Assembly: GCA_973851085.1 (NCBI GenBank)
Contig: OZ316776.1
Location: forward strand, 9,920,001-9,984,000
Reading direction: 5' to 3'
Length of the DNA: 64,000 bases
From: Ptychomitrium polyphyllum
Taxonomy: Eukaryota
Under the pieces are notes generated by a model. It worked only from the letters and a program-made list of their open reading frames with translations. It did no database searches and was not told the DNA's origin. Both the position numbers and the translations under genes were made by a program. Shown here one piece after another: positions 1 through 44,005 of the stretch (positions within the stretch are counted from its first letter, which is position 1; each line of letters opens with the position of its first letter).

Positions 1-514
1 TTGAGCTTATTATTCATTTCATCAATCAAAAAAGTGTAAAAGAAGACAATCTAAAAACAATACCTAAAAACTTTCAATTTCTTCAATTACTCTCTATAAG
101 ATACCAAGATAATTTGTTCCATTGATTCCTTTCCATGATAGTTTCACATTAGGATTATCAAAGTTTTTATAAGTCTCACTTTTGTTTTTTTTTGTATGTT
201 TTGACTATATGTAAGAGTAATTGCATTTAGCATGTAATATCAATTTGTTTATTTTGAAAATAACATACAAAAGATGTATTATGTCATGTCAAATATATTA
301 ATCTTGGCACATAGTAAGAATAAACAAAAAAACATTGTAAAAACATATCTTGTTAAATTTTTATTGGCCTACCAATTATTATATCATATTCTCTATTTTG
401 AACGATCTTTTAAGCTTTTAAATTCAATATAGATGTTTTGATAGTAATGAATTTTTAAAGTATAAAAATTAAATAATAACTTTATCTTTGAATACAAATA
501 TGTTGACTATGCAT

Positions 515-1047
515 TGAGGTGTAAATTGTTGAAGAATAATTGTCAACATCAACTACCACATAATTCCAATTCCTTTGTAACACAAAATATTCTTAATTGT
601 TATGTATATCTAAAATTACAAACTCTACATCTATAATTCCATAATTTTACATAAATTCCATAACACTTCATAAATTCCACAATACTTTTTTTTTATAAAA
701 TACAAGGTTGGCAAATGATTCTCAAGTCCTTGTGCATTTGGCCAAAACCTCCTTATATTGGAAAACTCATGAAGAGTTTTCCAATACTATTCCCATTATT
801 CTATTATATTTTTAATACAAAGTCATGTAAACTTATTTTAAGATTTGTCACTGAGTGGATTTTAACTTCCTTGCCTACTATAAGTTAAGGCTTTTATACA
901 AGCATCTTCAAAGCTACAAGTATCTTTGCAGCAACAAGTAAATTCAACTTTATGTTGTCTTATATTAGATGAATTAAGTTAGCTCATTAATTCAAGTGGC
1001 TCAAAGATGGTTCATTTGTTTGGGTCCTTCAAAAATTAATAACTCAT
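515..1047. repeat. Left terminal repeat of the 515-7173 element (reverse complement of the right repeat)
   Basis: 515-574 matches the reverse complement of 7114-7173 at 57/60 positions. Clear similarity continues to ~1047 versus ~6175, and weaker similarity to ~1090. Confidence 0.93.
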
Positions 1048-4000
1048 ATGTTCTCGAGCTAACACTCATATATTTTAGTGCTAACATATCCCTAGACTTA
1101 ATCTAAATTCCGCCCTTGGAATTAGAAAGATTGCGCATGAATACTTCATGATCAACATAGACCTTCTTCAAATTGTCATGATTCATCTTTTTTGAATAAG
1201 GAAAACCATCTAAATTTCTCAAATTTTATGTGCTATTAACTTCAAATACCTTAATGATTTGATATGGATCAAATCTTTTATGGCAAAAGCTTCTTATAAG
1301 TTTGATTGAAATGCTTTGAATCATAAACCATCACCAAATCTCTTTTATGAAAAATCTTGGCTTATTTTTGAATTTGTTTATTCCAAGCCTTCTTCATTTT
1401 GGCTTGAGCAACTTCAATAGCTTGTAGTTCTCATAATTGCAATTCATCAAGCTCATTTAACTGGACCAACCATTTTTTTTTAGATTTGTCCAAATCCATC
1501 CTCAACTGTATCGTTGTTTGCAAGGTCATAATTTCAAAATCAATTGGTAATACTGCCTCCAATCCATAAGCCAATGTAAATGATGAATGCCCAATTGCAG
1601 TCTTGAATGTGACATTATAAACCCACATTGTATGATGTGTCTTTAAATCCCAATCATAAACGTCCACCCTTGTTTCAACCTTTTTTGCAAGTATAGAACA
1701 CAATGTCTTGTTGTTTTTCTCAATAGTTCCATTAGAACTTGGCTTATATGTTGTTGTAAAGCGATGCTTAATATCTAAATATTCCACCATATTTTTCACT
1801 ACATTGCTTATAAATTGAGGTCCTTGATTAGAGTACGATTTCAATGGTACTCCAAAATGTATAGCAATTCTTTCTTATATAAACCTTGCAACTTATTTCT
1901 TAACTAAAGTTTTGAATATTTGCACCTGTGCAAATTTAATCAAATAATCTATTGCAACAACAATGAATCAAACTCTTTGTTTTGTAAATAACAAAAATTC
2001 CATCAAATCAATTTTTTATTTTTTAATGGTTCCAATAGAGAAATTAGATGCAACTCACTGCTAATTGTTGACTTATTAGCATAAACTTGACACACTTCCC
2101 ATTTCTTACAATGGACATAAACAACCTTGAATAAAGTTGGCCAATAATATCCTTTAATTAATATATTCTCTAGAGTGATGCGCCTGTAAAATATCTTCCA
2201 CAAAACCCTTCATGAAATTCATATAAGAATTTTGACACTTCTTTTTAATCCACTGCACGTCGTAAAATTCCATTATTTCTACAAAAATACACCAAATTGC
2301 CAACCAATATATAAGATTGACTTTTGCGTATAATCTGGTCCTTCATCTGCTTTGTAGCATCTTTGGAGAATTTTACTTCATTCAAAAATTATATAATATA
2401 TTTGTATTCTTCTAGTTGTTCTTATACATTAATTATCATCAAATCTGGAAAGTCATCACCTACTAATATTTCTCCCAGCTTTGTGTTGATTTGTAATAAA
2501 AAATTTGCATTAACATAATTGACACTTGTCATGTGCTTGATCTCAACATTAAATTCTTGCATCAATATTATCCATTGAAATTTTTTTATTGTAGCATTGG
2601 ATTTATTGATAAAATAACTCAACGCTTGATGATCTGTCTTGATAGTAGCTTTATTTTCCAATAAATAATGACAGAATTTCCTCAAGGCAATAACAGCCAA
2701 TCCTTCTTTCTCTGTGGCTATATAATTCCTTTCAGTTGATGTCAATTGCCTACTTGCATAATAAATTGCATGATCCTGACCTTCATCAGCCAATTGTGAT
2801 AGTGTAGCATTTACACCTTCTCCAAAAACATTAGTGTATACAATAAATGATTGTGTCCAATTTGGAGGCTTCACAATAGGAGCTTTTTAAAACTTTTCTT
2901 TCAATGTTTCAAAAGCTTTCACAACTTCAAGTGTCTTTTTAGGTATTGCTGCATCATCTTTCAAAAACTTAATCAAAGGTTTAGAAATTATAACATACAT
3001 TAAAATATTATGCTAATAATAACCAGTGATTTCCAAAAAAAGCCTTATTACTTGTTTAGTCTAGGAAAATAATATCATTTTAATGGCTTTAGTTTTTGCT
3101 GGATTAGTTGCAATTCCATCTTTAAATATAATATATCCAACTATTCTTCCTAATAGAAACGATACATTGATCTTCCCAGCACTTAATATTATTTAAGCAG
3201 TTAAGCCTTTGAAAGGTCTTTTCCAACTTCTCTAGGTGTTCCGTTCAACTTCTATAAACACCAAAAACATTCATGAAGACTCTCTCAAAGACACCAATGT
3301 AAGGTTCTTACACCTTGTTTATAACTCTTTGAAATGTTTCTGGAGCTTTGCATAATCCAAATGGCATAACAATATAATAAAAAGTACCCAATTGTAAAGT
3401 AAATGTTGTCTTAAGTTGATCTTCAACTGCAATTTTTACTTGATGGTAACTACTATATCCATTGCAAATGTATACATGTTATGTCCAACCACCTCCTCTA
3501 ATATTTCATTGCAAAATGATATAGGATAGTTATCTTTTTTGGTAGCTACATTAAGTTACTTGTAATCAATGCACATCTTTGCTTCCAATTTTTCTTTGGT
3601 ACCAAAGTAATTGATGATACCCATTCAAAAATTTTCACTAGTTTCATAAAACCTGCTTCCAACAACTTATCCAGCTCTCCTTTCACAATAGCCATGTAGT
3701 TGGAATTCATATGATAAGGCTTTTGCTTTACAAGTTTGGCATCCAAAAGTAATTCAATCTTGTCAACTTCTATGTTCACATCCCGTAAATCTTTGTAACT
3801 GAATGCAAAAAGATGCATTCATCATGCCCCACAGAAGATAATTCATTTCCTATCTAAATTTGAGAAATTCTTGCTTTAATTTCTGCTTCAATCAAAATAA
3901 AAGTTTTTTCAGCCCCATCTATGATCTTAGCTTTATCTGCACCTTCATCAATAAACACTTATTCATTTTCTGATTTAACTTCCATTGCATAGATTTCCAT

Positions 4001-6174
4001 AACATTTATTTCTATTTCATCTGATAAATCATCTGTATAAATGCCCTCTATTTCTGAAGTATTTGCTTCAGATGAATGGAAGTTTGATTCATCATTGCTC
4101 AGTGTTCCTCCTCCCAAAAGTGTAAGTGATAACTTTTTTCTATTAGAACTCTTCTCAATGGTCATATATCCTTTATCCTAGTAATTTCTAATATATGGCT
4201 TTGTAAGCTAGAATCTTCCAAGTATCATTGGATAGACTCCATCGTCCTTTGCTACCACATAAAAATCTACCTGTATAGCTACTCCAAGCATACTAACAAC
4301 TACATTCATCACATCATCCACAAGTTTACAAATCTACTTGTTTGCCATTTTCAATGTAATACAAGACAATTTGTCAATATTTAGTCCCAAGTATTTCATG
4401 GCTAGACTTATCATAACATTCACTTTTGTTCCTCCATCTACTAAACTCCTTTCAACATTGTAGCATTACAATATACATCAATAATAGGATCGTATTTTTG
4501 TTGGACTATAATGGCTTGTACAACTTTAGGAATAGTAGAAGCATTTTTTGCAAACAATCCCTTCCTGGATTCTATTTTGGCAAAAGGTACCATAGCTACT
4601 AATTGCCCAATTGTAATATTAGCTTTTTTTGAACTTACATCCTTTAAAACAAAATAAATACCTTGACTCTTGGATATATCAAAATCTTGAAATCCTAACC
4701 TTGATCTTCTTGTCTTCTTCTTCTCACAAGCCATCTCTTGCAACTTTTTCATAGATGATGATGGTCCTTCCTTTCTTTCAGCTAGCCTTTTTTGTGCCAT
4801 AACGTCTATCTTTATATGCAAAAAGCCTTCATTTCACATAAAGGCCTTATTTCTATGACTGGACTGCATTTCAATGAGGTTTATTTGTCATTTTCCCTTC
4901 ATATCTCTCTTACTTGAAAAAACTCTTTCATTTGCATCTTTGAGACAATTTCTTCAATAATATGCATGCTCTTTGCAGTTGTATTATTGAATATGCAATA
5001 AATCCCGAGCACAACTATAATTCTTCTTTTGTGGTTGAAGCATATGTACATTCAATTCACTCATTTGTTTAACAAGAAATTTCATGGCTGATTCAATCTT
5101 ACTTGGCACTTTTGATGGCTTTATTACCGTTGCTTGGGTAGCAATCAATTCTAAAAATTGAATAATCACCTGCTGCTCTACACTTGATCTTAGAACAATC
5201 TCCATGCTTTTTTCCTTTCTTTTAGCAATGCGTATAGCTATTGTAAAAGTTTTAGCTGCTTCATAGGTTACTTGTTGCTTAATCTTTGACAACAATTTAA
5301 TCACATAGTATTTTAACATCCATGAATCAAGACCTGTAAATACTGGAGCATTTTTTTCATATGCTTGCATCCTCATAATTTTAGCAATCTTTGTAGCCAA
5401 ACCTTGAACCCTCTCTGTATACTCCTTCACCTTTTCTAAAGTTTCTTGCTTCACTTGGCTCAAGTCACAAATCAAAGTTTCATAGACATAGACATATGCC
5501 TTGCTATATTTTTAAATCAATGCTATACTCATAAGCGCCCATGATTCCTTCTCCTCTGTGATTTGTTTTTCATACCATTAATGAACTCTTTCCTCTAATA
5601 ATTCTAAAAGAAAAGTTGCCTTCATCTTTGTTATTATACTTCCAATATTAATATATTTTTTTTATGTTCTTTTTAAAAAACTTCAAGATCCTCATCTTTC
5701 GTGCCATTAAAATTGGTATAGATATCATTTTGTCACCTTACAATACTTTATTTTTATTTTATCTTTTCTTCTTATACAAATCTAGATATTATTACTTTCT
5801 TGTAATAACTCTCAAATTCCTAGAGCTATATTAATCACAAATTACATTATCTTTTCTATACTCACATATTTTAAAGCTCTAAAGGTATTTAAAGTTGCTT
5901 TTACTCGTATTTGAAATTCATACATAATCCTAACATCCACATGTTCATTATCAAAAGTTCCACCTAAAACAATTATATCTTGGTTATTTCTATTTTGTTC
6001 AACCTTTAATCATATAACACTATCCAAAATATCCTCACTTTTTCCACCAATTCTAAAAGGTTCTTTTGGATTAATTTCTCTCTTCTAATGTGCATTTATT
6101 TTTGGATGTATAAGTGGACTTGGTAGCTCCAATATTATTGGTTCCAATACATATGACTGTTAATTGTAGAATAA

Positions 6175-7173
6175 ATGAACTATTAACTCTTGAAGGACCC
6201 AAATAAATGAACCATCTTTGAGCCACTTGAATTAATGAGCTCACGTAGGTCATCTAATAAGACAATATAAAGTTGGATTTACTTGTAGCTGCAAAGATAC
6301 TTGTATAAAAACCTTAACTTATAGTAGGCAAGGAGGTTAAAATCCACTTGGTGACAAATCTTAAAATAAGTTTAATTGATTTTGTATTAGAAATATAATA
6401 GAATAATGGGAAGAGTGTTCAAAAACTCTTCATGAGTTCTAGTATATAAGGAAGTCCTGGCCAAATGTGTTAAGGACATAAAAAACAAAAAGTCGAAACG
6501 AAGTGTTGCCCAAGAATTCATTTCGAAAGAGCTAATGATTAACAAGAATTTGATACAAAGACTAGTACAAGGCAAGATACAATATGATCCACAACTTGTG
6601 TTGGCAAGACTAAGGAATACCTTGTCTTGCCTCCTATTTATACTATGACGCATGTATCTCTTAGAATACTTCTAAAGAAGCTTCCTAGAAGGCTTAAGAA
6701 TGTTTTAGAAGTCTATGGAACCTTTTCAAGAAGTTTTCTAAGATATTGGTATTGGAATCTTTCTATAAAGTCTCCTGAGATGATGGAACCTTCTTATGAA
6801 GTTTCATGAGGTGGTGGAACTTTCCTAGGAAATTTCCTAAGAACAAAGAAACGGCTATGAAGACATTTGAAAGTATTCTAAGAAGCCACTATAATATACC
6901 AAAAGGTTTTAGAAGGTTCTAGAAGGTTGTAAAGACAATGTTGCATAATCTATGTCCGTGACAAATGCACAAGGATTTGAGAATCATTTGCCAACCTTGT
7001 GTTTTATAAAGAAGAGAGTGTTGTGGAATTTATGAAGTATGATGGAATTATAGATGTAGAGTTTGTAATTTTAAATTACAATATATAAAGGTTGAGAGTA
7101 TTTTGTATTACAAAGAAATTGGAGTTATGTGGTAGTTGATGTTGACAATTATTCTTCAACAATTTATACCTCA
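6175..7173. repeat. Right terminal repeat (inverted), interrupted by a solo LTR at 6468-6963
   Basis: 6175-6467 plus 6964-7173 is the reverse complement of ~515-1047. Example: TGAAGGACCCAAATAAATGAACCATCTTTGAGCCACTTGAATTAATGAGC versus left GCTCATTAATTCAAGTGGCTCAAAGATGGTTCATTTGTTTGGGTCCTTCA. Confidence 0.92.
6468..6963 (-). mobile_element. Solo LTR of the chromovirus family seen at 37645-44005, nested in the right terminal repeat
   Basis: TGTTAAGGACA...TGTCCGTGACA termini and colinear similarity to 43530-44005. AATG is duplicated on both sides (6464-6467 and 6964-6967). The empty site is preserved in the left repeat (reverse complement GGCCAAATGCAC). Confidence 0.92.
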
Positions 7174-8256
7174 ATGGATTTTCAATGTCTTGATATAAAT
7201 TGCATCTCTTGTTCCCTAAAAAAAATATTTGTATACGCATCTCTTAATTGAATTTGCTTCTTATTGTTATGGCCTCCACCTTTATTTGTTCAAACGTTTA
7301 GAATCTGCCTGCAAGCTCACCAAGCCCACTTTGGTATTCAACATTAGCAAAAATTATTTTGGAACTCTTCCATCATCTTAAAGAATAAAGCTTAAAGTTC
7401 TTTTATAATTCTTAGTTCTTGTACTTTCTACCTACAATATTGATAGTAGAACTATATTTATTCTTTATTTTTCAAAGAAGCCTAACGTACCATGTTATGT
7501 TTAAATTCTTGATTCTTTTTGAAATTTCCCAACACCTCTGAAGGAAAAAATCATGTTATAAGTGAATCTATTTAGAAATTTTGCCTAAATAAAAAGTGAG
7601 CAGATGATTTGAACGCGAACTATTATAACATATATGATATTCTTCTATAAGGTTAGCATTTCCTACAAGTTGATATCAAACACATAGTCCATTTAATTAG
7701 AATTCTAGTTCTTAAATTAAAAGGTTAACACTTATTTTTTTAACGTAAAGCTCCAATTGCTTGTTTGTACCCACCAACTATCAAGAGATACAATATCAAT
7801 GAACTCGAATCAAATTTTATATCATTTATATATTAAATTTGAATCATACTTTGGAGGTTTTCAAACCTATTGATCTAAAAATCTAGGCTTTCATTATTAC
7901 AGCCTTGGTTATCACACTTAGAAAAGGCCAAGGTTTTTATTGGCCAGCCAAGGTACTTTTGAATATATGTTGTAACTCTCTTATTGTTCTTAGTATTACA
8001 ATTCATTGGAGAAAGTTTCACAACCACTAATGAGTATTATAATGTGAGTTTCTTGGTGCATTTCAATGAATTCTCTTCATTTCAAATAAATATAATTAAA
8101 AATTAAATGAAACTATATTAAATTACTTTAAATTAAGACTTCAGTATTTAGTTTTTAACAATCTAATTCTTTATCGCTAGATTGGCTATTAATATTTTCT
8201 TTTTGGATTATTTGGCTGTCTATTTCCTATTTTTTCCATATTTTTTTCACCAATAT

Positions 8257-8370
8257 CTATACACACACATATGTACATATGTACATATATATATATATAT
8301 ATATATATGTACATATGTACATATGTACATATATATATATATATATATGTGTAAACATATATACATACAT
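8257..8370. repeat. Compound (TA)n/(TACATA)n microsatellite
   Basis: Runs of ATATAT interleaved with GTACATAT units. Confidence 0.9.
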
Positions 8371-11300
8371 GAGATGGAAATTTTATTTTGGATGAAAATG
8401 TACATACGGATCAAGATAAAGTACAAACATCTATGAAAAATTATTATATGTTGCCTTACTAGCCATAATAAAATATTGATGAAGACTAATGAAGACCAGT
8501 GCCACAATGAGAAAGCCTTCACATCAGCCTGCCAATGCAGCCATAAGCTAATTCCAGTTTGCATGCAAAGGATGCACAATACTTTTTGGTCCTGGGTTTT
8601 GGCATACTGTAGATCAAAGCAATCTCATTGAGCTAAAGGTGTTGGTTCCTTCCATCATTACAAATTAAAAGCTTTGCAACTTTTGGCAGCTTCATCATTA
8701 ACTAAAAGTATTTACTAAACTTTTTACATGCTTGTGTAAACTTTTTATAGATACACCAATTCTTACCATTACTCTAAGTCACAGCTATGATGTATTTGCA
8801 CAAGAACTTTGGTTTTTGAATAAAGTGTCGGTCACAATTATTAAAATTTCTTACAAGGAGAACATCTTCCCATATGCTTTACTACAATAATAGCACAAGG
8901 TCATACTTTCAAAACATGTTATAATAGGTATAATGTAGTCACCATTTAGTATCTATACCAATGTAAACAAAATAATATTCAATTTAAAAATAACCTCTTA
9001 AAAATTCAATGTATGATGTTCATTATTTTAAAAATATATTCTCACACCATGTCAAAAACTCTCTTTCAGAATTAGTATGAACATTGGTATAAAATCTTAC
9101 ATTATTGGGTAGCAATTGGTATTGATGAGACACCATATGCATATTATGAGCATAAATATATATTAATATTTATAATATTGCATTTCCTAAGCATTTAAGG
9201 TCATTTAGATCTTGTCCAATTATTCACAGAATTTTTTTTTATGTGAATGGAAAAATGAGTTGGCTATTTACATAAAAATAATTATTATGGTATAATCTTC
9301 TTCCATGGACCATTTCAGGAATAATCTTAGGATGGCCATTCAAGAGCTTGTTCATAAGAGGAACACTCTTCCATTGAATATTATTTTGATGTCTTCATTT
9401 TTACTTGTGATTTATCTTCTACCTTAAAAACCCATATATTAAGCTAATTGAAGAGGACAAGGTGTGGAACGGCCCACCACTGACACAGGGAAGCCGGTGT
9501 TATTTATTTATTTTTATTATTTGAAATAAAGAAATTTCGGTTTGCATTAAGAAAAAGAAAACACCTTATCCCATTGCAGCATACTCTATGCACTTCTTAG
9601 AACATTCTAGCCTAGTTTGATTGTCTAGCATCTATAATAAATCTCATACCAACCAACCAGTTCAGAATATCATTTATTACATGTGACACATGTCTATAAA
9701 TTTTCAGTAGGTTGTTATGGTACACTTCATCAAGATCGAGAATGACATTTCAAACACAGCAGTACAACTATAACAAAAGAATGTGATTTATACATACTGG
9801 TCTTTTCAAAGTTACTGGCCAGACAAACCTGCACCAACTCCAATTGCACTCCTTATGGTGACACAACCTGACTTGAATAAAAGAAATGACAAAATCTACT
9901 GTGATACTACAGCTTGCTAGCTTGCAAAACCCCGCTCTATGCTGGCTGTATTAGTAGTAAATTTCTTGCATATATAGAAGTTAGTTGTGCAAAAAATTAA
10001 TTAGATTTAGACTAAAATAAAATAAAAATAAAAACCCTACTCTATGTTGTAACCTTCATTGACGAAGCATTTCAATATCAAGCAATCCCATCCTTATCCA
10101 GAACAGTTTAGCACAAGCAAGTCTTTATTGCTTTGTGACAAACTGGTATAAGACCAAAATGGATTATCAAATGTTGAATTTGATTTTTTTCACAAAAGAC
10201 AATAAACTTACCAATCCATAAATTAACCAAAAAAAAATTAAAGATCAAATTAAGAAATCTAATGGTGATTTGTATTTGATATGGATTTGAAACCGTTTTA
10301 AAGTTTTTTTTAAAGAAAAAGGTGCATAATATGTTGTAGAATTAAAAAGTATCATAACCTTTAACACCACAAAATTATTAATCTAAATAAGCTATGAATT
10401 TGAAATTTGCATGATACAAAAAAGACAATGAATTAATTGTACCTAAAATTTCCAGGTGATTTTCAATGATTTAAGATTTATGTTTTTGTATTTGTAAGGT
10501 AGTTTTAGTGGATTTGCACTTGAAGTTTCATATAAAATTTCTAAATTTTAAAACAACTGTTCAATTATTTGAAAATATGTTGGTGGGTTGCTAATATATA
10601 ATTATCTCTATAATTTTATTTAATTTATAGACCAAAAGATTATAGATTGATATAATTCAAACTCAAATATTACAATTAGTTTTTTTTTTAGCTCGAAAAT
10701 TTGTATTAGGATTTAAAATTTATATTTTATCAATTCTTCTTCAATATTATATATATACTTTCAATAGTTACCGTCTACCATTCCTTAATGATAGCCAACA
10801 AATAAATTGTTATTTTTGGACTTTAAAAAGGTCCTCAAATAGTTAAATATGTAATTCTTTAAAAAATCAAAAATTAAATAAAGGTGCATAATATGTTGTA
10901 GAATTATAGAAAACAAGATTTCATTGACTTTGAATTTAAAATTTTTCAAAAAAAAACTTTATAATTGATTCAATGCTAATGAATGTTAGATCCATTGCAA
11001 CCATAGACATATTATTTGTAAAACAGTAAGGTGACAAGTTGCCCCAATTTGTTGATATGGAAAAATTAATATAAAAATACTACATAGAAGAATGTTTTTG
11101 GAATTATTCCAATGAAAATTATAGATTTTGAATTTTAGATTTTATGCACAAGATTAAATATGTTAATGCTAGCACCAACATTATATTGAGTTATATTTAA
11201 GACAAGATTTAAATTCTTTTTAAACTAATTATAAAAAAACATTAACGTTTTTTGAAAGAATTTTTTAAAAAAAATAAATTGAAACTATGTATAGACATGT

Positions 11301-11875: not shown

Positions 11876-12294
11876 TGTATTAGGGATATGAAAAACAAGG
11901 AATTAGACAAGAAGTGGTTTCAAGAATTAATGTTTTAAATGCTACCAAATAATTAGAATTGATGCAAGAATTAGAAACACAACAATACTATGGATAATGT
12001 TCAACAACTTGTATTGGCAAGAATGAAGTGTACTTCATGTTGCCTTTTATTTGTATTATATAGCCTATATTTTTTAAGCTACTTTAAAAAAAATTTATAA
12101 CACAATAGAATGTTCTAGCGGTCTACAAAGCCTTCTTCAAAAGTTCCTTAATCTAAAAGAAAGGTTTTTAGAAACTATTAGAAGATGTTTGAAAGTTATT
12201 AGAAGCTATTGGACAATAATAGAAGCTATTAGAAGGTACTTAAAAGTTATCAAAAACTACTAAAATGTTTTTGAAATATATATTATTGGTGTAC
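11876..12294 (-). mobile_element. Old, AT-eroded solo LTR related to the chromovirus LTRs
   Basis: Colinear motifs shared with 6468-6963 and 43530-44005 (AAAAACAAG, CAAGAATTAAT, ACAACTTGTATTGGCAAGA, AGAAG-rich 3' part). Boundaries approximate. Confidence 0.65.
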
Positions 12295-20237: not shown

Positions 20238-21235
20238 TTACTGTCCCTTGGTGAACTCGTTCATGCCGAGAACCTTCTGGAAGGTGGGGCGAGTGGAGAT
20301 ACTAGTCCACCATGCGCTCACATGGGGCCGAGAGGTTAAAAGGTCGGCTTTGCCTGCCGCGTTGAAGAGCATGTTGGCATAGGGTAGGTGGGAGAGATCC
20401 GCCAGGGTGAAGGAGTCGCCAGCCAAGTACTTGTTCTTGGACAAGTGCGCCTCGTATACGTCCAGCACACTTTCCAGCTTCGCCACCTTCTGAAAAACAA
20501 CCTCGTCGTTGCACTTGCCGCCGAACATGGGTGAAAACACCACCTGGTACACGATCTCGGACGCTGAGGGGTTAAAGTTCTGTGCCTCCACCTCCCACCA
20601 TTGGTTCACCAGCGCCCTTTCTTTTACATTGTTGCCCAAGAGAGCCGTCCCTTGCCCCTCGAACTTCTCGGCTAAGTATCTGGCGATGGCCCGCGACTCT
20701 GCATGATGCACAAAACAGATAATAAGAACAATCGAAACCGTATAAAGCTTTATACAAAACCGTATAAAGCTTTACACCCCTCCATCAAGAAAATACACAC
20801 AGCGAGCATGGCAGAGGCGGTCTTACCAAAGAGGCAAAGATCTCCATCTTTAAGCACCGGGATCTGTCCAAAAGGCTGCATACATAGTACCACCCCCCAG
20901 AAACATCAGAATGCAACGCAGTAAAAGCCACCGACCTCCTAGCCCTAAATTTACACAATCAAGCCTTTCTCGCGCCATTGCTCTGCACAGGCCAGAACGG
21001 AATCATATCCAAAACCTCGCAACTCAAGTCAACCTGCATTGCTAGTCCTCACACAACAGGGCTAGGACATCAAGGGATCCAATACCTGCATCTGCAGGTG
21101 CTCGGGGCTCTTGTGCACGCCTTTCAACATATCCACGAACTCCAGCTTCCAGTCATCGACGTTGAGCTCACCGAGCGTGGTGAGGATACGCTGCGTGCAG
21201 GTCGAGTACCCAGCTCCATGCACGATGAGCGACAT
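20238..21235 (-). CDS. GSTF: Phi-class glutathione S-transferase, 219 aa; exons 21235-21086, 20875-20827, 20698-20238
   Basis: MSLIVHGAGYSTCTQR...HKSPEHLQMQ|PFGQIPVLKDGDLCLF|ESRAIARYLAEK...YLAGDSFTLADLSHLP. Typical phi-class three-exon structure with a 49-nt middle exon; 660 nt in frame. Confidence 0.96.
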
Positions 21236-21986: not shown

Positions 21987-22080
21987 AATATTATGTAGAA
22001 CAATATTATCACACATAATATTGTAATGAGTAAATTTGTAGAATAATATTATGTGTGATAATATTGTTCTACATAATATT
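21987..22080. repeat. Perfect 36-bp inverted repeat with a 22-nt spacer
   Basis: 21987-22022 AATATTATGTAGAACAATATTATCACACATAATATT is the exact reverse complement of 22045-22080. Confidence 0.9.
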
Positions 22081-24630
22081 GTTCTACAAATTTATTCTTA
22101 CTTTGGGCCAATTTATTTTTCTATGAATTTTTTTTTTTTTCCCAAATTTGTCAATTAAACCATAAGTGTCCAAAGATCTTTCTTCATTTTCATTTCTATA
22201 GTTTTAAATCAAAGTTTTACTTTGAGATTATTTAAAATCATGCTTTTGAGATTATTAAAAATATTCCTTAAATCAAAGTTGAATTAAAAATTGTTGAATT
22301 TAATTGGCCAATTCATCACATTTCTCCATTATTTAAAAATAACTCATTAAAATTTCATCTTTATATTATTATTTCTATTCTACTTTAATTTGGATGAAAA
22401 TAATCAATATGATAGAACAAAAACTAATGGATTTATAATCAATCACAGGTTTTTTTTTAATCTTTGATGATATTCAATTTATCAATCTTTATTTTAATTC
22501 AATTTTGATTATTTTTACAACCAAACAAGTTTGTTAGGATAACATTGCAATTTGTATAGAATTTATAATTTAAAAGATTAGTTAAAAACAAACATTTGTA
22601 CAAAGTTATGCTTTAATAACTTAAATGTCATTTTAATTCATGTTGGATATTTAAAGAATAAATTTAGTTCATAATAAGAACAAAAACGAAAAATAATTGC
22701 ACATTTTAAAAAATAATAAAGAAGCATTTGATTGTTTTTTATATAAAATAAGTAACTTTGATAAGGTGAATCATTGAAACAAGTACCTTGTGGTATTCCT
22801 CATGCCTTCATGTTGATAAAGTACAAGCCAAATATTCTATTTAGAACTTTTTACTTAAAGAAAAATTACTTAAAAAATATTTTTATTAATTCTTGCATGC
22901 AATCATTATCCATATAAGAATAAAATCAACAATTTGACAATGATGAGTCATGCACACTTTTGAAGTTTGGATTTTAGTTTGTTAATCTATGTGCCAAATA
23001 AAAAAACAATATTGCACTTTAAGCCTTATATAATTAAAACTTCTATGGTTTGGAACATAAATAGAGATTTATTGAATGGACATATTTTTTTGTACAAAAA
23101 GATTATGATGTTGTAAGATTGCTTTGTACCATTTGAAAGGCCATGTATGAAGGCCTATAAAATAGACCAATGGATCTCATGCCCTATTTACATTGGCTAC
23201 CCAAGCCATTACTTCAACTAGCATTTTTTATAATCTTAAGAATAAAGTAAACAATAAAATAAACATTTAAAATAGACCAAAAAGAAGAAAAAAAGAAAAG
23301 ATGCTTATTGGACTATTGACTAGTATGGCCTTGCTATTAGTAATCACCTCATTTTTATTTTTAAATAATATTCTCTAATAATTATTTAAATAAATTTCTT
23401 TCAAAGATTTCATTTTAGCACCTAAAAATACCATTGAATTATCAAAATCTTATTTCATTTAAGATAGAAGGATCTTATTTGCCAAATTACAAAACTAAAT
23501 TCATATCTTCATATATGTGGTGCCATATGCAAATTACATACCTTTACTTTTATATATTATTAAAATTTCACTTTCAACTAAAGTTGTATTACTCCAATTA
23601 TTAAAAATGTTATGAAAGTTGACAATTAAGTCTAGCCATAATCCTAAGCCTTATTAATGCTTTACTATGGTGATTGTTATAATTTAAGGACTAAAACAAA
23701 TATTTAAAATCCAAAATAAGCAAAGTTGAACAATTTTTTATATTAATAAATAGACTTTTTAAAATATTTTTCTTGAAGGAACAATGTCATTTTCCAAAGA
23801 AGAATATGAATACTCAACTATTTTTGTAACAAAAACAAAACAATTATCAAAATTATAAATTTAAGTCTTTACATGCTATACTTTAGTGGATAAAATTTCA
23901 CCATTATGTTTTCTCTACATAAACAAATGCAATTGCTAACATCCCACATTAGTTTTTCCTTAAATAGTGAGAATTGAATAACTTATCATAGAACTACAAT
24001 TAAGCTCATTGGCTTTTCTTGGAATATACATTCCTCTTCTAAAATTCTTACAATGAAACTTAGTTCTAAGCTGAGGTCGAGAGGAGTTGTTCTAAGCTTG
24101 GATGTACAGTAAGGTGAGCCCCGGGTGACTAAAACATTGTCCATTCCACGTGAGTACCTATCAAATAAACAAAGACGCTTCTAAGCATGAGTTTCTCACA
24201 AGTTCTATCTGATATTAAGGGCTGATGGAGTATTGAGGTCTTGACCCACAATCCTGCCTTCCGACTAAAGAACCCTCTGTTAGCTGTTTGATCATTTCAC
24301 TAAAAATCTCTCACTGCTTGCTGCCAGGTTCCCACAGCACTTCGTGTATTCCACTGACAAGTAATGCAATCTCTGTCCCCATGACCCCTGTTCAGACTTT
24401 CGTACATCCACCCTGGACTAAAAGTGTACCCTCTGGTTATCAACAGGGAAAATATTTTGAACTTATCAAATCCGTTGAGTCGATCATTGAGCATAGGATT
24501 TTTCGTATCAGATATTCTGATAATCATTCCCGGAAACACACTCACGCCATGTAAAGCACAGAATCTCGTGCTTGGGGCAGTGCTTCACCCCACACCTTCT
24601 CACCATTTGAAAAATCTGATTATAGCCTCC

Positions 24631-26703
24631 TCATCTCGGTGACACACACATCATTGAGTCACTCCAAATTCCACCACTTACAGGGCTTTCATGTTTGGCT
24701 TTGGAGAGCCGATAAGGTGATAATATTGGTGTGGAGATTTCACTCGAAAAAGTATCCACGTGGGACCGACCCAGCAGCTCCAAGTCACTCACCACCTCAC
24801 CCATGGTGGGTCGCCTCTCTGGCATCTCTCTGCAGCAGCTCAGGGCTAACTCCATGAACCACTCCAAGGCTTCTGTAGAATAATGCGCTATGTGGGGGTC
24901 GACCATTGACAACAACGTCCCCTTCTTAACTTTCTTATTTGCCTGTTGATTCATCCAGCCAACCACTACCAACACATCAGCTTCTAAGGCCAGAATTTGC
25001 TAGTCCATAATCCGTTTCATCTCCTACCCACAGAGTTCATGTATTTCATTTTGAATCCATATTTTGTAGTCTGAACTGAAAAAGGATGAAGTGTTGTGAG
25101 ATTCTAATTTAAGTGCAAAAGATGCCTTGAAGTGAGTTACTCATGCTAATGGCCCATTCAAATCAAAACTTTCTATGGGAGAGTACACTAGAATTAAGTG
25201 AATGCGAGAAAATTTTATTAAGCTTGAGAGAAACTTTACCTCTCGAACGATATTCTTGCCCTCGGAGATTGCTCGCATGCCAGTAATGAGCTCCAGCATC
25301 ACAACTCCGAAGCTGTAGACATCACTCTTGTCGGTTAGTTTTTGAGTCATATAGTACTCAGGGTCTAGGTATCCTGGCGTGCCTTTCACGACGGTGGAGA
25401 CATGGCCAGGTGTGATGCCCTCCATATCTGGCACTGGTGCCAAGCATGACAGTCCGAAGTCTGCCACTTTGGCCGCCTTCCGGTTGTCTAGCAATATGTT
25501 GCTGGCCTTAATGTCTCGATGGAAAATGGGCGGGTTGGCTTCTGTGTGCAAATAGAAAATCCCTCTTGCTGAATCCCGTGCAATTCGCAAGCGGGTTGGG
25601 AAGTCCAATGGTATGCCTGACAATGCTGCGAGAAATAAAAAGATCACTTAGATTATGCAATCAGTAAATCTCTGTCAATAATTAATAACTCTTCAAGATA
25701 CGAAGTTCAATTGGATTAATTCTTACCAGATAAGTGATCCCGGAGAGTACCTCCCGACATGAATTCATACACCAACATCTATAAAATCAACAAAGATGTC
25801 CTTTAGTCACATCATCCCCGTAAGAATAACCATGTTTTGTCACCAAAAACACGGAATCTCCATGTGTCCTATAGAACGAGATCAACTCGTTTAAAATGGC
25901 AATTTCTAAACCGCAAAACAGATACTACATAATTCTGAATATCTACCAAAATCTAGTGAATCTACAGAATTATTGAATATGACCATATAAACTGCTCAAA
26001 CAGAACCGATAAGTGCAAGGCTTTCACAGCTATAGCAAATTGCCCACCTGGTGGCCCTCTTCATCGCAGTAGCCCTCAAGGATCACAAGGTTACGGTGAT
26101 GAACTCGAGACAGGAGCTCAATTTCGGTGTAAAACTCCCGGGCTCCTTGGACCGATCCCCTTTCAGCCCGCTTAATAGCCACTAGCTTTCCATCTTGGAG
26201 CTTGCCCAAGTACACCTTGCCATAGCCCCCTTCGCCAATTTGCTTCTCATCGCTGAAGTTATCTGTCGCCTCAACTAGCTCTTCATAAGTGAAGGCTTTT
26301 ACTCCAGCTACTTTCAACGCTGGATTGATCCTCTTTGTCACGTTCAACGACGATGAGCTGATTCTCTTTGTCCTCACTTTCACTCTACTCACTGCCACAA
26401 AACAATATTAGGATAAGTTGCCAAAAAAGGATCTGACCACAAATTGGAGGGAGCAAGCCTGACTAAAACAGTCTCAAATTGGCCCTTGAAATTTGTAAAC
26501 TTAAAAAACAATCCACGATTCTCATCATCATCAGATTCAGTTAGCAAACACAAACACAAGCACAAGCACAAACACACACACACACACACACACACACCCC
26601 AAAAAACCGACAACTTACAGCGTTTATGAGCTTGAAGAGCCTTTAGCTTCAAAGGCTCATGTGCATGAGCCAAGTACAGATACATTATTGCGCAGATTAC
26701 CAT
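24631..26703 (-). CDS. Ectodomain-less tandem paralogue of the LRR receptor kinase, ~392 aa (hydrophobic N-terminus plus complete Ser/Thr kinase); exons 26703-26619, 26391-26048, 25778-25727, 25625-25240, 24942-24631
   Basis: Same intron positions and phases as the 3' half of 28892-34587. Motifs [26 protein letters not shown] and [10 protein letters not shown] are intact; 1179 nt in frame without a stop. The start codon is uncertain. Confidence 0.8.
26546..26597. repeat. (CA)n/CACAAG microsatellite in an intron of the truncated kinase
   Basis: AAACACAAACACAAGCACAAGCACAAACACACACAC... Confidence 0.85.
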
Positions 26704-28891
26704 GGTTGCTAAGGCAGCAGCAAAGCATAGTCTCTCAACTTCTAAACCAATAAACTAGATGCTACCAAGCAAATAAAATCTGTGAGAAGCTAACAAGAGC
26801 GACATCAACGATAGTCTCCTGAACTAGTAGATGCAAACCATTATCGTCTTTCCCATATGATATATAAGTACTGCATAATGAGAGTTGGAGGCTAGGCCGC
26901 TTCAGGTGAGGGCAGGGGTGAGGGCACCCTAGTGCTGAGAAGGTTCCCAGCTCTGCAAACGAACTGGTTTGCTCAAGGATGGGTTACCTTGAGACCATGA
27001 GGTATTCTATGGAAGCCTCTGTGGAAGGAGGTGGGTAAGAGCTTCCACGAAAGGTGTCCGATATAGAGGCTCTGGAGTTGCAGTATTTCAGATGTTGTGT
27101 CTGTGACTTAGACAACTTCGTAGTCGTTGTCAAAAGCTGCCACCTATGTTTACTTTCCGCCCCCAACTCCTTGTAATGCTTCAAAATTCAAATGTATTTC
27201 CACGCCCCTGGAGTTGCAATAGCACTGTGCATAACGTTTTTCTTAGCAGTTCCATGTATTTTCATCTTTTGATACTTGAGATCTATATTTAGGCTGTTTG
27301 ATTGCCACATGACATCATAGAACAACAGGAAGAGAATCTGTGTAAAATTTTGTACACAGATGCTATTTTTCAATTCAAAGTTAACTCGACATTCTTTGTA
27401 CTCATGATGAGCCTAACAATCATCGATACTAATCTAAGAAAGACACTAAATTTCAATGAATCAATTCTTTTTCATCCAAAACCATATTTTAATAAAAATT
27501 ACCAAATTGAATTTTAAAATAAGTATAGTTGTTGTAGGAAAAATCTCACAACAATCTGCCATTGTTGTAAAATTTGGGAAGCATTTTAGTACAAAGAATT
27601 TGGTTTTGAATATCCATTTGTTTTGAAAAATTTGGACAATGTTTAACATTAAAGGATCATTTAAAATATATTGTTTTGTTTGAACAATGTTTTGCATTAC
27701 TAAAGTGTTTTAAAATGAGAAAAAACAACTTCTTAGTTGAAAGGGATTTAAGTGGAGTTGATTTAATAAAAGAATTTTAAATCCAAATTGCCAACAACCA
27801 AATTTAATAGTTATTTTTTAATATTTAAAGATTATGGTCTTTTAATCTATAAGGCTTTGCGACTTCAAATTTGGTTCAAATTTGGTGTTATAAAATCAAG
27901 GTTGTTACATCATTTACATTAAGTTTGCAATAAAATTGTAAGATTGAAGTTTTCATATATCATTTTTATTTACACTTATGATACTTCAAAACTATTTTAA
28001 AGAATTAATCACAATATGTAACATCCAATTATATAACAACCTTGATTTTACAACACATTTTTATGCAACACACTAATATGTTCAATCTATTTGGACGCCT
28101 TCAATGTTTAGACAGCTTAATTTAGACATACAATGAGCAGGTTTACTTCTAAATACTTCCCTACCTCTTAATGATCCACGCTTTCTTAAATAAGTTTTTC
28201 CATCCTGGCATGCAGTGCTTATTGTGGCAGTTCTAGATAATTAACTAATTTGTTGTTGAGCAACAAATACAGTATTATTTGTTAGTACTATTATAATTTC
28301 ATTCATACCACACTTCAGCTATTTCGCATGAACACCAATTACTCGTGTTAGTCAACCTGATTCTCTTGTGGAAATTGCAACTTTGGGCTTGCATCAAGCT
28401 CAGGTGTGATGATAAAATTCGTGTTCAACGTGGAGATTCCCAACCTGAGTCCGTTAAATACAAGAATCTTTTGTTGGGCACGACCTAGCTTCTCATCATC
28501 TATCCACACAACTATTCCAATCTCTTGCCTGGCTTGGTTCACCTCCACTACCTTCCACCACGCTGGAGAACCAGGCAGTAATAACTTTCCTACTGATGCT
28601 ACGACCTTTCAATGTATACAGTTTAATTATAACTACATTAAATTCCAACACCAAAATGCCAGAATCATAGGAAAACCATGATCTACCATGCTTCGAAATT
28701 CTCAGGGAAACAAATATCAATCTCTAGCTAGCAAAGATTATCTTCAAATGGAACATTTCCAGAAGCTTAAGGCTTCCAGGCTCCTCACAGCAATAACAAT
28801 GCACGATCTATCGATGGTGCCCTCCAAGACTATCCTGGATTTTCACTTTCAATAACGCTCTGCACCATTTGAAATAATGATGATTTCCGGC

Positions 28892-31800
28892 TCACCTAGG
28901 AGCCACATGCATCACAGTGCCACTCAGGAGCTCACTGGTGTCGGCTGAGCTGCGGTCATGGGCGCTGTAGGGGAAGCTTGTGGGGAGAGATGTTCTGCCA
29001 CTGGAAGTGGCCATGTCCATGGAGTACCCATGTGGGAAGATATCTGCATTCCTACGCCCCAGCTCCTCCAAGTCTCGCACCACCTCAGCCATAGTGGGTC
29101 TTGCCTCAGGCATATCGCTGCAGCAGCTTAGGGCCAATGTCATGAACGCCTCCAACGCCTCGGTTGGGTAGTGCGCTATGTGGGGGTCGATCATAGACAA
29201 GCTATGCCCCGCCAACGACCTTTGATGTGCCTGCTCATTTAAGGTTCCAGCCAATATCAGTGAACCAATTAATTCCTAGAGACACACCGTTTGCAGTGGT
29301 AATCAAGTCATCACTTGTGTCAAGAAAAAATCAAAAACAAAATCAAAATCCAACTCCCATAGAAAACCTTATTACCGACAACCGCAAAGAGAATATGCTG
29401 ACGTGGAGCATTTACCTCTCGAACAATATTCTTGCCTTTGGAGATGGCGTGCATGCCAGTAATGAGCTCCAGCATCACAACTCCGAAGCTGTAGACATCA
29501 CTCTTGTCGGTTAGTTTGTGAGTCAGAAAATATTCGGGATCCATGTAACCTGGCGTGCCTTTTACAACGGTGGAGACATGGCCAGGAGTGGCGCCCTCCA
29601 TGTCCGGCACGGGTGCCAAGCGTGACAGTCCGAAGTCTGCCACTTTGGCCACCTTCCTGTTGTCTAGCAATATGTTGCTGGCCTTAATGTCTCGATGGAA
29701 TATGGGCGGGTTGGCTTCTGTGTGTAAGTAGAGGATTCCTCTTGCTGAACCCAGTGCAATTCGCAAGCGAGTTGGGAAGTCCAATGGTATGCCTGATAGA
29801 GCTTTGCAATACAGGAAAAAAAAATCATTTTTAGAGCTAAATAAATGAACTCGTCTTTACAAAGCGTGATTATCTAAATCCAAGAGAAGATTTGTAGGAA
29901 AAATAACACTTACCAGACAAATGATCCCGGAGAGTACCACCTGGCATAAACTCATACACCAACATCTACATAATCACCAAAGGTGTTCGTTAGTCACTTC
30001 ATACACCTAAGACGGACCATGTTTAAAGACTATATTCCACAAAAATTGGATAGCAGAATATAAATTGGAACTAATGACAAGTTACCTACCTGCTCGCCCT
30101 CGTCGTCACAGTAGCCTTCGAGCATCACGAGGTTACGGTGATGGACTCGAGACAGGAGCTCGATCTCGGTGTAAAACTCATGGGCGCCTTGGAGTGATCC
30201 CTGTTCAGCGCGCTTAATAGCCACTTTCTTTTTACCATCGTAGATGTTGCCCAAGTACACCTTGCCATAGCCACCTTGGCCAATCTGTTTCTCATCACTG
30301 AAGTTATCTGTTGCCTGTGCCAGCTCCTCAAACGTGAAAGCTTTGACACCAGTCACTTTCAAAGCTGGGTTCCTCTTTGCTCTATTCACTGTGCCACAAA
30401 CATGAAGTTTACAACAAAATGAACAAAACAGGTAGACTTATTCTTGCCAGCCTGCATAATCAAAGATGATCAGTTTTTTTGTTGACAAGAGAATAAAGAA
30501 GGTCAAAAAACTTACAGCGGTCAATCTGGGCTCGGAGGGCAGGTGGAAGGTTTTCACGACGTCGATAGAACATGAACAATATCAAGGCCGTGACTGCCAT
30601 TGCCAAGACAGCAGCTCCAATGACGATGCCAGCAATCGCTCCTTTGGACAAACCGCCCTTTGGTATCTCATATACTGTAAAATACACCAATCAAACCTTG
30701 ATGATTAAACTGAATAGCTCGGATCAACAAGCATTTCGAATGCCAAGAATGTAATCCAAGCTAACCCTGGTATCACGTGATGCAAATGAGAAACTGGAGT
30801 TTGTTAAAGCGAATGCCAGGAGAAACACACTACACTAGTGCAATACATACATAAATTTACATCTTTACAAGATTTTGATTTGTAAACTTCTTTGATAACG
30901 AACTTGGATCAATCCAGCATACAATAAACGAGTAAAATTGACGGTTGAACTTCATACTTCTGGTGAGGTGTGGTTATACTCCAGTTTCAAGACATGAGGT
31001 TTTGAAACACCCATTTCAACATATTCTGACCTTAAAAACAAGTATAGAACAACAAAACATGACTACCTGAAAGACTTCGGGGATCAAACGAAATAAGCTC
31101 GTAGGGTCCAAATATGGGACTGTCTGGAATCTTCCAAGCCGAGAAGGTGAAGTACAGCCTGTCGAACTCCGACTGGTTAAAGGTGTTATTGCCAACTGGA
31201 TAGAGCCGAATGGTCATGGCCAGCCGAGGCCCAATTTGCCACATGTAATCTTGCAGCACCACTTGGTGTTGGTTTAGATTCAATCCACCTGAGAGGTAGG
31301 ATAAAAACTCCTGGTTGTATAGGTCAAAGACTGAAAAGCCCGGACTCTTGAGTCGATAGCGAACAGTGATGTATCTGCAAGTTGTGCATGTGTTTGGGGG
31401 AATCTCCACTGGCACACTGTCGTCATAAGGATATGCAAAAATGTCGAAATTGGGGATGCAGACTGGGTTCTGGCCTGTATTAAATTTGCAAATCGCTGGA
31501 TTTCCCGAGAATCTAATGGAATCGAAATATGTATTTAGCAACATACTCAATATAATAAACTACCAGACTAGTTCAATTGAACTGTACAGATATAATCTCT
31601 CTGCCTCGATGTAGCAGTCACTTTCAACCAAAAAGAACAAAATGATAATGAATTCAAAAACTTAATCATATGCGATGCAAACCATAAAAGTGCCACTATG
31701 TATAGATGAATCTTTTGATCACATACCGAACATGAGTCGTGGAATTGCTTTCTAAAGCCGCCAAGGATTCATTGAAGGATGCGAGCTGGTTGTTTTGGAG

Positions 31801-37644: not shown

Positions 37645-38121
37645 AATTAGAGAAACAAGAAACAAGAAGTGGAACCCAAGTGTTTCACAAGAATTAACTT
37701 CCAAAGAACTAATGATTAACAAAAATTGATATAAAGACTAAAACAAGGCAGAATATAATATGATTCACATCTTGTATTGGTAAGACTAAGAAATACTTTA
37801 TCTTGCTCCCAATTTATACTATGACGCTTGTATCTCCTAAAATACTTCTAAAGAAGCTTCCTACAAGGCTTAAGAATGTTTTAAAGATCTATAGAACCTT
37901 TCCAAAAAGTTTCCCAACATGGTGGAAACTTCCTAAGAAGCTTTGACCAAGTTAAAATCTTCCTTGGAAGTTTCCTAAAGTGATACAACCTTCCTATAGA
38001 GTCTTCAAAAGAGCTGGGAACGGCTATGGAAAATTAAAAAGTAATTTAAGAAGCTACTATAATATACCAAAAGGTTTTAGAAGCTTTTAAAGACTATGTT
38101 GCATGATCTATGTCTGTAACA
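37645..38121 (-). repeat. 3' LTR of the chromovirus
   Basis: Direct repeat of 43530-44005. The outer end is eroded; the inner end is TGTCTGTAACA. Confidence 0.9.
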
Positions 38122-43529: not shown

Positions 43530-44005
43530 TGTTACGGACACAAGAAACAAGAAGTAGAATTCAAAAGTTTCCCAAGAATTAACTTCTAAAGAACTAATGA
43601 TGAACTAGAACTGATACAAAGACTAGAGTAAGGCAAGATAGAATATGATCTATAACTTGTGTTAGCAAGACTGAGGTATACCTTGTCTTGCCTCCCATAT
43701 ATACTATGACGTTTATATAACCTAAAATACTTCTAAAGAAGCTTCCTACAAGGCTTAAGAATGTTATAGAGGTCTATAAAACCTTCCTAAGAAATTTCCC
43801 AAGATAGTGGAACCCTCATAAATAACTTTTAAGGAATTGAAACTTTTCTAGAAATTTCTTAAGGTGGTGAAATCTTCCAAGGAAGTTTTCCAAAGAGGTA
43901 GAAATGGCTATGGAAACATTGATAGTATTTTAAAAAGCTATTATAATATACCAGAAGTTTTTAGAAGGTTCTAAAGACTATGTTGCATGATTAATGTCCG
44001 TGACA
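43530..44005 (-). repeat. 5' LTR of the chromovirus
   Basis: TGTTACGGACA...TGTCCGTGACA termini; minus-strand TATA at ~43697-43703. Confidence 0.93.

What the first reader, a model, noticed from the sequence alone, without database searches (positions are those of the whole stretch)
509..7179. Gypsy gag-pol retroelement with long INVERTED terminal repeats and a 6-bp TSD
Seen in sequence: a complete Gag-PR-RT-RNaseH-integrase cassette is bounded by ~530-bp repeats in inverted orientation (57/60 identity over the outermost 60 nt, reverse complement). The ends are TG...CA, flanked by ATGCAT and ATGGAT. Established knowledge: Ty3/Gypsy elements carry direct LTRs because strand transfer during reverse transcription needs them, and plant ones usually make 5-bp TSDs. 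Inverted repeats with an RT occur in DIRS elements, which use a tyrosine recombinase. TIRs with a Gypsy-like integrase occur in Ginger and Polinton elements, which lack an RT. The combination RT + DDE integrase + long TIRs fits none of these. Inference: the TSD suggests the whole unit integrated in this configuration, so it may represent an undescribed TIR-bounded retrotransposon family with a different priming or strand-transfer route, or one mobilised cut-and-paste by its integrase. Tools that look for direct LTRs would miss it. The alternative is a one-off inversion of one LTR.
Basis: partly seen in the sequence, partly recalled or inferred. Interest (0 to 1): 0.92.

Follow-up and report, generated by a model that had tools for sequence, protein, structure and literature searches.

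The report
Gypsy copy with one flipped LTR
This is a long-dead plant jumping gene whose two terminal repeats face each other, most likely because of a copying slip that recurs among its relatives, rather than a new kind of transposon.

Summary
The inverted repeats are real: arms 512-1086 and 6121-7176, 89% identical, the right one interrupted by a nested 496-bp element. The cassette is heavily decayed, not intact. The 6-bp TSD is ambiguous: other copies in the same sample end about 3 bases further out, and this clade makes 4-bp TSDs.

The arms are ordinary LTRs. The integrase-side arm is a normal 3' LTR; the gag-side arm is a flipped copy that replaces the 5' LTR and primer site. In source-sample contigs, none of 7 listed joints links gag to an arm, and 7 contigs leave the inner arm end elsewhere.

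In a related family, 16 of 18 loci with a gag-side LTR have it direct. Two are flipped, at different junctions, each closest to its own 3' LTR; one has a perfect 4-bp TSD.

Best reading: a recurrent reverse-transcription template-switch by-product of a direct-LTR non-chromovirus Gypsy, dead on arrival. It has the layout once proposed as the precursor of Ginger1 transposons. This scan noted similar inverted-LTR by-products before on other DNA.

The parts
509..514 (.). Left flank hexamer ATGCAT (palindrome); candidate 6-bp TSD; 512-513 is where other family copies carry the terminal TG
   Evidence: loose ends at 514 and 517
512..1086 (-). Left arm = 3' LTR in coding orientation. Starts TGTTAG with 22-nt tandem units at the inner end; the U5-type end points outward. 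This copy's shared end is at 515 (or 514)
   Evidence: it starts 97 nt after the integrase NHD motif against 72 nt in relatives, and has the same sign of GC skew as sense LTRs of relatives
1087..1099 (-). Decayed PPT-like stretch directly before the 3' LTR (inferred from position)
   Evidence: compared with the PPT of relatives; it fails a strict 11-of-13 purine test
1160..2330 (-). Integrase (zinc-binding part, rve core, GPY/F-type tail), broken by stops and frameshifts; no chromodomain seen
2551..2922 (-). RNase H
   Evidence: RT_RNaseH E 2.6e-24 and RT_RNaseH_2 E 2.8e-22
2923..3820 (-). Reverse transcriptase, in at least four frame pieces
   Evidence: 66-68% nucleotide identity to relatives
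4190..4480 (-). Aspartic protease remnant
   Evidence: motif; nucleotide match to relatives; no Pfam hit
4700..6100 (-). Gag remnant, probably missing its N-terminus
   Evidence: Retrotrans_gag E 1e-5; tblastn to relatives 5679-4705, E 1e-49; upstream extension to 5988 is weak
6121..7176 (+). Right arm = inverted copy of the LTR, U3 facing gag and U5 end outward, in place of the 5' LTR and PBS. This copy's shared end is at 7173 (or 7174)
6468..6963 (.). Later insertion of an unrelated TG..CA element, probably a solo LTR, with 4-bp TSD AATG/AATG
   Evidence: 77-78% identical copies at 37575-38121 and 43530-44005
7174..7179 (.). Right flank hexamer ATGGAT; candidate 6-bp TSD (5/6)

Best explanation
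This is a decayed non-chromovirus Ty3/Gypsy copy whose gag-side repeat is an inverted copy of its own 3' LTR, likely made by a template switch during reverse transcription and likely integrated in one piece. SHOWN: two inverted arms, 89% identical, sharing a non-family end; no primer site at either junction; relatives mostly with direct LTRs and 4-bp TSDs; the same flipped layout in 2 of 18 relatives. INFERRED: minus-strand DNA, extended from the 3' LTR into the start of gag, missed the normal second strand transfer. It jumped by microhomology onto minus-strand DNA at the PPT/U3 boundary and copied U3-R-U5 again, giving a linear DNA with two U5 ends. Integrase would join both U5 ends to the chromosome. 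Without a 5' promoter or primer site the product would be dead on arrival, and it has since decayed.
For: Arm polarity matches a 3' LTR on the integrase side. The gag-arm junction looks private to this copy: depth falls to 52 at 6070-6109 against about 35 for a single copy, 163-249 in the gag region and 341-3800 on the arm. None of 7 listed joints links gag to the arm. Seven contigs (3+4) run a median 255 nt from the inner arm end with letters like the left arm's inner end. In the related family 16 of 18 gag-side LTRs are direct, with 4-bp TSDs. L029 and L050 are flipped at different junctions with 2-5 nt of microhomology. Each flipped LTR is closest to its own 3' LTR: 0.963 against next best 0.925, and 0.93/0.90 against 0.81. 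They are not sisters in the tree. L050 has a perfect TSD, CACA/CACA. Fold-backs in L050 and L024 sit on U3 hairpins. The window's arms share 9 of 24 minority letters (P 0.006-0.036 under assumed rates of 0.15-0.2). HIV-1 integrase prefers U5/U5 pairs in vitro (PMC8742673, passage). Template switching makes complex insertions with TSDs in grasses (PMC1950507).
Against: The window's TSD is not clean. A 6-bp reading breaks the clade's 4-bp rule, a 4-bp reading (3/4) leaves ends without CA, and both ends fall 2-3 bases short of the family end. The inverted match runs 9/12 into the flanks, as a genomic copy including flank would give. No full-length copy of the window's own family was read; the read laying tables are cut (345 and 58 loose-end rows not shown). 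One listed contig (record 6) and most arm copies could not be assigned. L050 has one U5 and one U3 tip, so it is not the same product class. L029's left tip is off its contig. No microhomology could be fixed at the window's own junction. A profile of the relatives' LTRs does not find the window's arms, so polarity rests on position and composition.
Confidence: 0.55

Rival explanations
1. An ordinary direct-LTR copy was rearranged after insertion. A replication or repair template switch copied the 3' LTR plus about 12 bases of flank in inverted orientation and deleted the 5' LTR and leader. The TSD is then only copied flank.
For: The inverted match extends 9/12 into the flanks (chance P 0.002, and compatible with 89% identity, P 0.14). 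It explains the shared non-family end without special integrase behaviour.
Against: Only 4 of 6 bases match beyond the palindromic hexamer (P 0.07 by chance). The same layout recurs in relatives at element-internal junctions and U3 hairpins, one with an intact TSD.
Confidence: 0.22
2. A second LTR of the same family inserted in the opposite orientation into the start of gag, and a later deletion removed the true 5' LTR. This is the route Bao et al. sketched for Ginger1 TIRs.
For: The arm is abundant in the sample, about 100-fold single-copy depth at its conserved parts. The arms differ at 11% of sites, and at 10 of 24 diagnostic sites only one arm departs from the family.
Against: Neither arm has its own TSD under the six end choices printed. 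Both arms share the same non-family end and 9 of 24 minority letters.
Confidence: 0.1
3. The host carries a real family of RT plus DDE-integrase elements bounded by long TIRs, copied by another priming route or moved by cut-and-paste.
For: Arm depth is highest at the outer tip (3411 at 498-613) and lower at the inner end (284 at 962-1077), as in TIR families with deletion derivatives. The flanks fit a single integration. A Gypsy with DIRS-like repeat layout exists in Klebsormidium (PMC5890265, section 9).
Against: No second contig joins gag to an inner arm end. A second depth peak lies mid-arm (3803 at 6270-6309), which also fits conserved LTR blocks. No PBS and no internal copy of the tip were found. 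The sister family has direct LTRs in 16 of 18 loci.
Confidence: 0.1
4. The inversion is an assembly error.
For: No listed contig spans the whole element, and the best-holding runs may be the assembly's own source.
Against: The arms differ by 56 substitutions, and only one carries the nested element. The gag-arm junction and the left outer junction lie inside contigs with 0 differences.
Confidence: 0.03

Closest known systems
Non-chromovirus Ty3/Gypsy elements of non-seed plants (Phygy, Selgy; Neumann et al. 2019, PMC6317226); nearest named protein OAE20976.1 of Marchantia polymorpha (P0019)
   Same: Gag-PR-RT-RH-INT order, no chromodomain, no extra RNase H seen, short internal region. It groups with P0019 (98/94) and with the metagenome family (100/99). 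Relatives make 4-bp TSDs, as Phygy (100%) and Selgy (96%) do (supplement rows).
   Different: This copy has inverted LTRs, no PBS and an atypical flank. No Phygy or Selgy reference sequence was in the tree, so the clade name is not fixed.
Complex LTR-retrotransposon insertions made by template switching (Sabot and Schulman 2007, PMC1950507)
   Same: An abnormal reverse-transcription product inserted as one unit, with related outer LTRs and a TSD.
   Different: The part read (1 of 2) describes three-LTR tandem products in direct orientation. Here the switch changes strand and gives inverted LTRs.
Ginger1 DNA transposons (Bao et al. 2010, PMC2836005)
   Same: Gypsy-type integrase with a GPY/F tail between inverted TG..CA ends. 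The paper proposes that Ginger1 TIRs came from two LTRs in opposite orientation around an integrase.
   Different: Ginger1 has 40-270 bp TIRs, 4-bp CCGG/CCGT TSDs, multi-copy families and no RT. This copy keeps gag, RT and RNase H and shows no sign of moving again.
GingerRoot (Cerbin et al. 2019, PMC6839031)
   Same: Integrase-related enzyme, TIRs, 6-bp TSD; reported in a clubmoss, with reads in mosses.
   Different: GingerRoot has 100-150 bp TIRs, mostly TA..TA ends, and is a DNA transposon. Here the arms are about 570-bp LTRs and the pol is an ordinary Gypsy pol.
DIRS-1 type retrotransposons
   Same: RT between inverted terminal repeats.
   Different: DIRS uses a tyrosine recombinase (abstract listing) and an internal complementary region (recalled). 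Here the enzyme is a DDE integrase, and no internal copy of the tip was found.

Membership tests
Ty3/Gypsy non-chromovirus LTR retrotransposon | Gag-PR-RT-RH-INT order with integrase last | tested here: met
Ty3/Gypsy non-chromovirus LTR retrotransposon | No chromodomain after integrase | tested here: met
   no chromo hit (decayed sequence lowers power); the LTR follows 97 nt after the NHD motif
Ty3/Gypsy non-chromovirus LTR retrotransposon | Two LTRs in direct orientation | tested here: not met
   inverted in this copy; met in 16 of 18 relatives with a gag-side LTR
Ty3/Gypsy non-chromovirus LTR retrotransposon | PBS after the 5' LTR | tested here: not met
   no match to the relatives' PBS-like motif at either junction; other PBS types were not searched systematically
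Ty3/Gypsy non-chromovirus LTR retrotransposon | PPT before the 3' LTR | tested here: inconclusive
   PPT-like letters at the homologous place; strict purine test failed
Phygy/Selgy clades | Grouping with REXdb reference domains | not testable with these tools
   no REXdb sequences held; the tree has none
Phygy/Selgy clades | 4-bp TSD | tested here: inconclusive
   window reads 3/4 (4 bp) or 5/6 (6 bp); relatives give 4 bp
Ginger1 / GingerRoot DNA transposons | Integrase-type transposase without RT or RNase H | tested here: not met
   RT and RNase H present
Ginger1 / GingerRoot DNA transposons | Multi-copy family bounded by TIRs | tested here: inconclusive
   no second gag-arm junction among 119 contigs laid, but the tables are cut and there is no assembly
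DIRS | Tyrosine recombinase | tested here: not met
   rve integrase found; no recombinase hit in the pieces scanned
DIRS | Internal region complementary to the termini | tested here: not met
   best local scores 19 and 23 against shuffle means 19.6 and 20.8

The most novel reading that the evidence does not exclude
This Gypsy clade spins off inverted-LTR, two-U5-ended copies at a rate near one in ten, and in this host such a copy became a TIR-bounded element that its own integrase re-mobilised: a caught intermediate between Gypsy retrotransposons and Ginger1 DNA transposons.
Probability: 0.1. Interest if true: 0.85.

Novelty: new variant of a known kind. Interest (0 to 1): 0.4.

Why it matters
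Standard LTR finders require direct repeats, so copies like this are missed or filed as TIR elements. If about 1 in 10 copies of this clade carries a flipped LTR (2 of 18; 95% interval 1-35%), these genomes record a strand-changing error of reverse transcription tied to U3 hairpins. That error makes, in one step, the structure that Bao et al. 2010 could only guess at as the precursor of Ginger1 TIRs. The route from retrotransposon to DNA transposon then becomes testable in assembled genomes. As a single dead copy it has no likely function.

Tried and rejected
No host genome is held, so family copies could not be read whole. An exact 28-nt arm pattern found 0 matches in metagenome contigs. Viral contigs gave 0 relatives among 123 pattern matches. 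Run X3 laid nothing; this is no evidence. The joint 686-1782 has only a 36-nt side and was not used. The identical depth figures at 6021 and 6157 were judged a coincidence, since no joint is listed between them. Homology between the arms inward of the TGTTAG start was not above shuffles (P 0.92). Gag homology upstream of 5730 was at best P 0.07 per locus in 18 loci, so loss of the gag start is only probable. A profile of relatives' LTRs did not find the arms. A DIRS-like internal complementary region was not found, and relatives show no split-repeat layout. L027's extra inverted LTR is not closest to its neighbour (0.890 against 0.905-0.914 for others) and was not counted. ARAGORN found no tRNA in the window. 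Look-ups of earlier findings by place and sequence were empty. Paper searches listed no description of an RT plus DDE-integrase family with long TIRs; the library lacks Repbase Reports and most subscription journals, so this is weak evidence.
Full report
Observation. The repeats are there. Self-comparison gives inverted matches 503-740 with 7185-6962 and 735-1071 with 6467-6151, and no long direct repeat around the cassette. The outer 60 nt match 57/60. Over the arms 466 of 522 aligned bases are identical, K2P 0.117; at recalled plant rates near 1e-8 per site per year that is several million years. The gap in the right arm is a later 496-bp insertion at 6468-6963 with TG..CA ends and a 4-bp TSD; relatives of it lie elsewhere in the window. 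The minus strand holds gag, a protease motif, RT, RNase H and integrase, with 33 stops in 8 pieces counted and many frameshifts. The host was not determined; a bryophyte is inferred from the nearest named protein.

The ends. The flanks ATGCAT and ATGGAT match 5/6 directly (chance P 0.012). But ATGCAT is a palindrome, so they also match 5/6 inverted, and that match extends to 9/12; a 4-bp reading TGCA/TGGA is possible too. Laying source-sample contigs on 150-3600 at 80% likeness (384 laid from X1, 342 from X2, 0 from X3; X1 and X2 are one sample) shows 13 contigs leaving the arm at 514 and 18 at 517, with loose letters ending in TG and TGTCA. So the family tip is at 512, and both arms of this copy depart from it in the same way. 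That points to a common origin of the two arms but does not prove a TSD.

What the arms are. Read from the inner end outward, the left arm begins TGTTAG 97 nt after the integrase NHD motif, against 72 nt in 8 relatives printed. It follows a PPT-like stretch and has positive GC skew (0.21; right arm parts 0.13 and 0.47), like sense LTRs of relatives (0.29-0.37 in 8 of 8). It is therefore read as the native 3' LTR, and the right arm as the same LTR reversed. No PBS-like motif lies at either junction. Relatives have about 590 nt of gag and 1260 nt in all between the 5' LTR and a conserved gag block (3 loci); here about 390 nt separate that block from the arm. The leader and gag start are thus probably lost, though upstream homology is weak.

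Is the layout family-wide in the host? On 5150-6320, 119 contigs of X1 were laid. This copy's own contig bridges the gag-arm junction with 0 differences. Summed depth, about 35 for one copy, is 163-249 at 5790-6029, 52 at 6070-6109, 341 at 6150-6189 and 3803 at 6270-6309. None of the 7 listed joints (1 more was dropped at a repeat) links gag to the arm. Seven contigs run a median 255 nt from the inner arm end with letters like the left arm's inner end. One gag-bearing contig continues 406 nt past 6018 with no listed joint to the arm. On the integrase side the 116-bp bins stay at 188-284, though bins of that size could hide a short dip. Depth is not a copy number and 58 loose-end rows were not shown, so this is good but not final evidence that the gag-arm junction is private.

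Relatives. The closest proteins are 49-53% identical; one clusters with OAE20976.1 of Marchantia polymorpha. A metagenome scan kept the best 80 of 296 confirmed loci; 61 of the 80 match one family at length, about 65% identical to the window in pol. In an RNase H tree of 42 rows the window joins the Marchantia group (98/94) and that family (100/99); its own branch is long. After merging duplicates, 18 loci show an LTR on the gag side. Sixteen are direct: L003, L006, L007, L008, L012, L013, L019, L028, L030, L033, L039, L040, L042, L048, L057, L067. Two are inverted: L029 and L050. Loci that end inside the element or are 5'-truncated without an LTR were left out, and L040 and L067 may be collapsed assemblies. 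TSDs are 4 bp: GTAA/GTAA in L007, 3 of 4 in L012 and L057, unclear in L042. This agrees with Phygy and Selgy (PMC6317226, supplement rows).

The flipped relatives. L029 has an inverted LTR joined to mid-gag, starting about 30-40 nt inside U3; its outer tip is off the contig. L050 has a whole inverted LTR plus PPT and 48 nt of integrase end joined to the leader, a fold-back in its 3' U3, and a perfect TSD CACA/CACA. Each flipped LTR is closest to its own 3' LTR among 34 LTR pieces, as are 6 of 8 normal 5' LTRs tested. The two are not sisters in the tree. Junctions show 2-5 nt of microhomology, and the fold-backs of L050 and L024 lie on U3 hairpins. So strand-changing switches near the PPT and U3 recur in this clade at different points, which fits accidents of copying, not a fixed architecture.

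Mechanism. Inferred: minus-strand DNA that had reached the start of gag primed on minus-strand DNA at the PPT/U3 boundary and recopied U3-R-U5, giving two U5 ends from one template. That explains the shared end and the 9 of 24 shared minority letters (at 10 other sites one arm has the family letter, and 5 sites are gapped or carry a third letter). Integrase use of U5/U5 pairs is shown for HIV-1 in vitro (PMC8742673, passages). Template-switch insertions with TSDs are known in grasses (PMC1950507, part 1 of 2). Inversions occur at low rate among HIV-1 proviruses (PMC9278108, passages). A genomic inverted duplication after insertion remains a real rival because of the 9/12 flank match.

Comparison. 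It works like, and descends from, a direct-LTR non-chromovirus Gypsy (PMC6317226: passages, section 9), but this copy fails the direct-LTR and PBS tests. It is not Ginger1 (PMC2836005: part 1 of 5, passages, Discussion), GingerRoot (PMC6839031, passages) or DIRS. The Ginger paper does propose this layout, two LTRs in opposite orientation around an integrase, as a possible source of Ginger1 TIRs. A Gypsy with DIRS-like repeats exists in Klebsormidium (PMC5890265, passages and section 9); relatives here do not show that layout. PMC11899658 has no main-text passage on inverted structures. PMC12885004 names Phygy in a liverwort (passages). Searches listed no TIR-bounded RT plus integrase family. 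Earlier notes of this scan report inverted-LTR by-products in fish and algal DNA; they are unchecked leads, not support.

Verdict. A real structure and probably a single event, but most likely a dead by-product of an ordinary family. Its value lies in the recurrence among relatives and in the link to the origin of Ginger1. Interest 0.40.

Noticed in passing
window 6468-6963, 37575-38121, 43530-44005, 11876-12145 and an end motif at 47929: A second TG..CA family of about 500 bp with 11-12 bp inverted tips, probably solo LTRs. Only the nested copy has a clean 4-bp TSD.
   Followed up: partly
L024:5734-6001: The 3' LTR stops after about 200 nt and ends in a palindrome of the U3 tip, so the element ends with a U3 tip on the right.
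   Followed up: partly
L027:4967-6060 (same site as L028 and L031): The 3' LTR is followed tail-to-tail by a whole inverted LTR, and the 5' LTR is cut to about 140 nt. L024 and L027 both have ATACCA after the outer U3 tip.
   Followed up: partly
L007, L008, L012, L030, L033, L057, flanks of the 5' LTR: The bases before the U3 tip are often TGG or GG followed by A/T, hinting at a target preference in this family.
   Followed up: no
L013:9379-10828: The 3' LTR runs straight into a second leader, a tandem element sharing one LTR.
   Followed up: no
L077:222-6503: Three 1.3-1.8 kb repeats, one inverted, next to a pol of another clade.
   Followed up: no
window 8245-8372: (TA)n microsatellite mixed with TATGTACA palindromic units.
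   Followed up: no
window 20238-20771 and 24767-31559: A glutathione S-transferase exon and a tandem pair of receptor-like kinase genes, about 80% identical.
   Followed up: no
window 21987-22101: A palindrome of about 100 bp.
   Followed up: no
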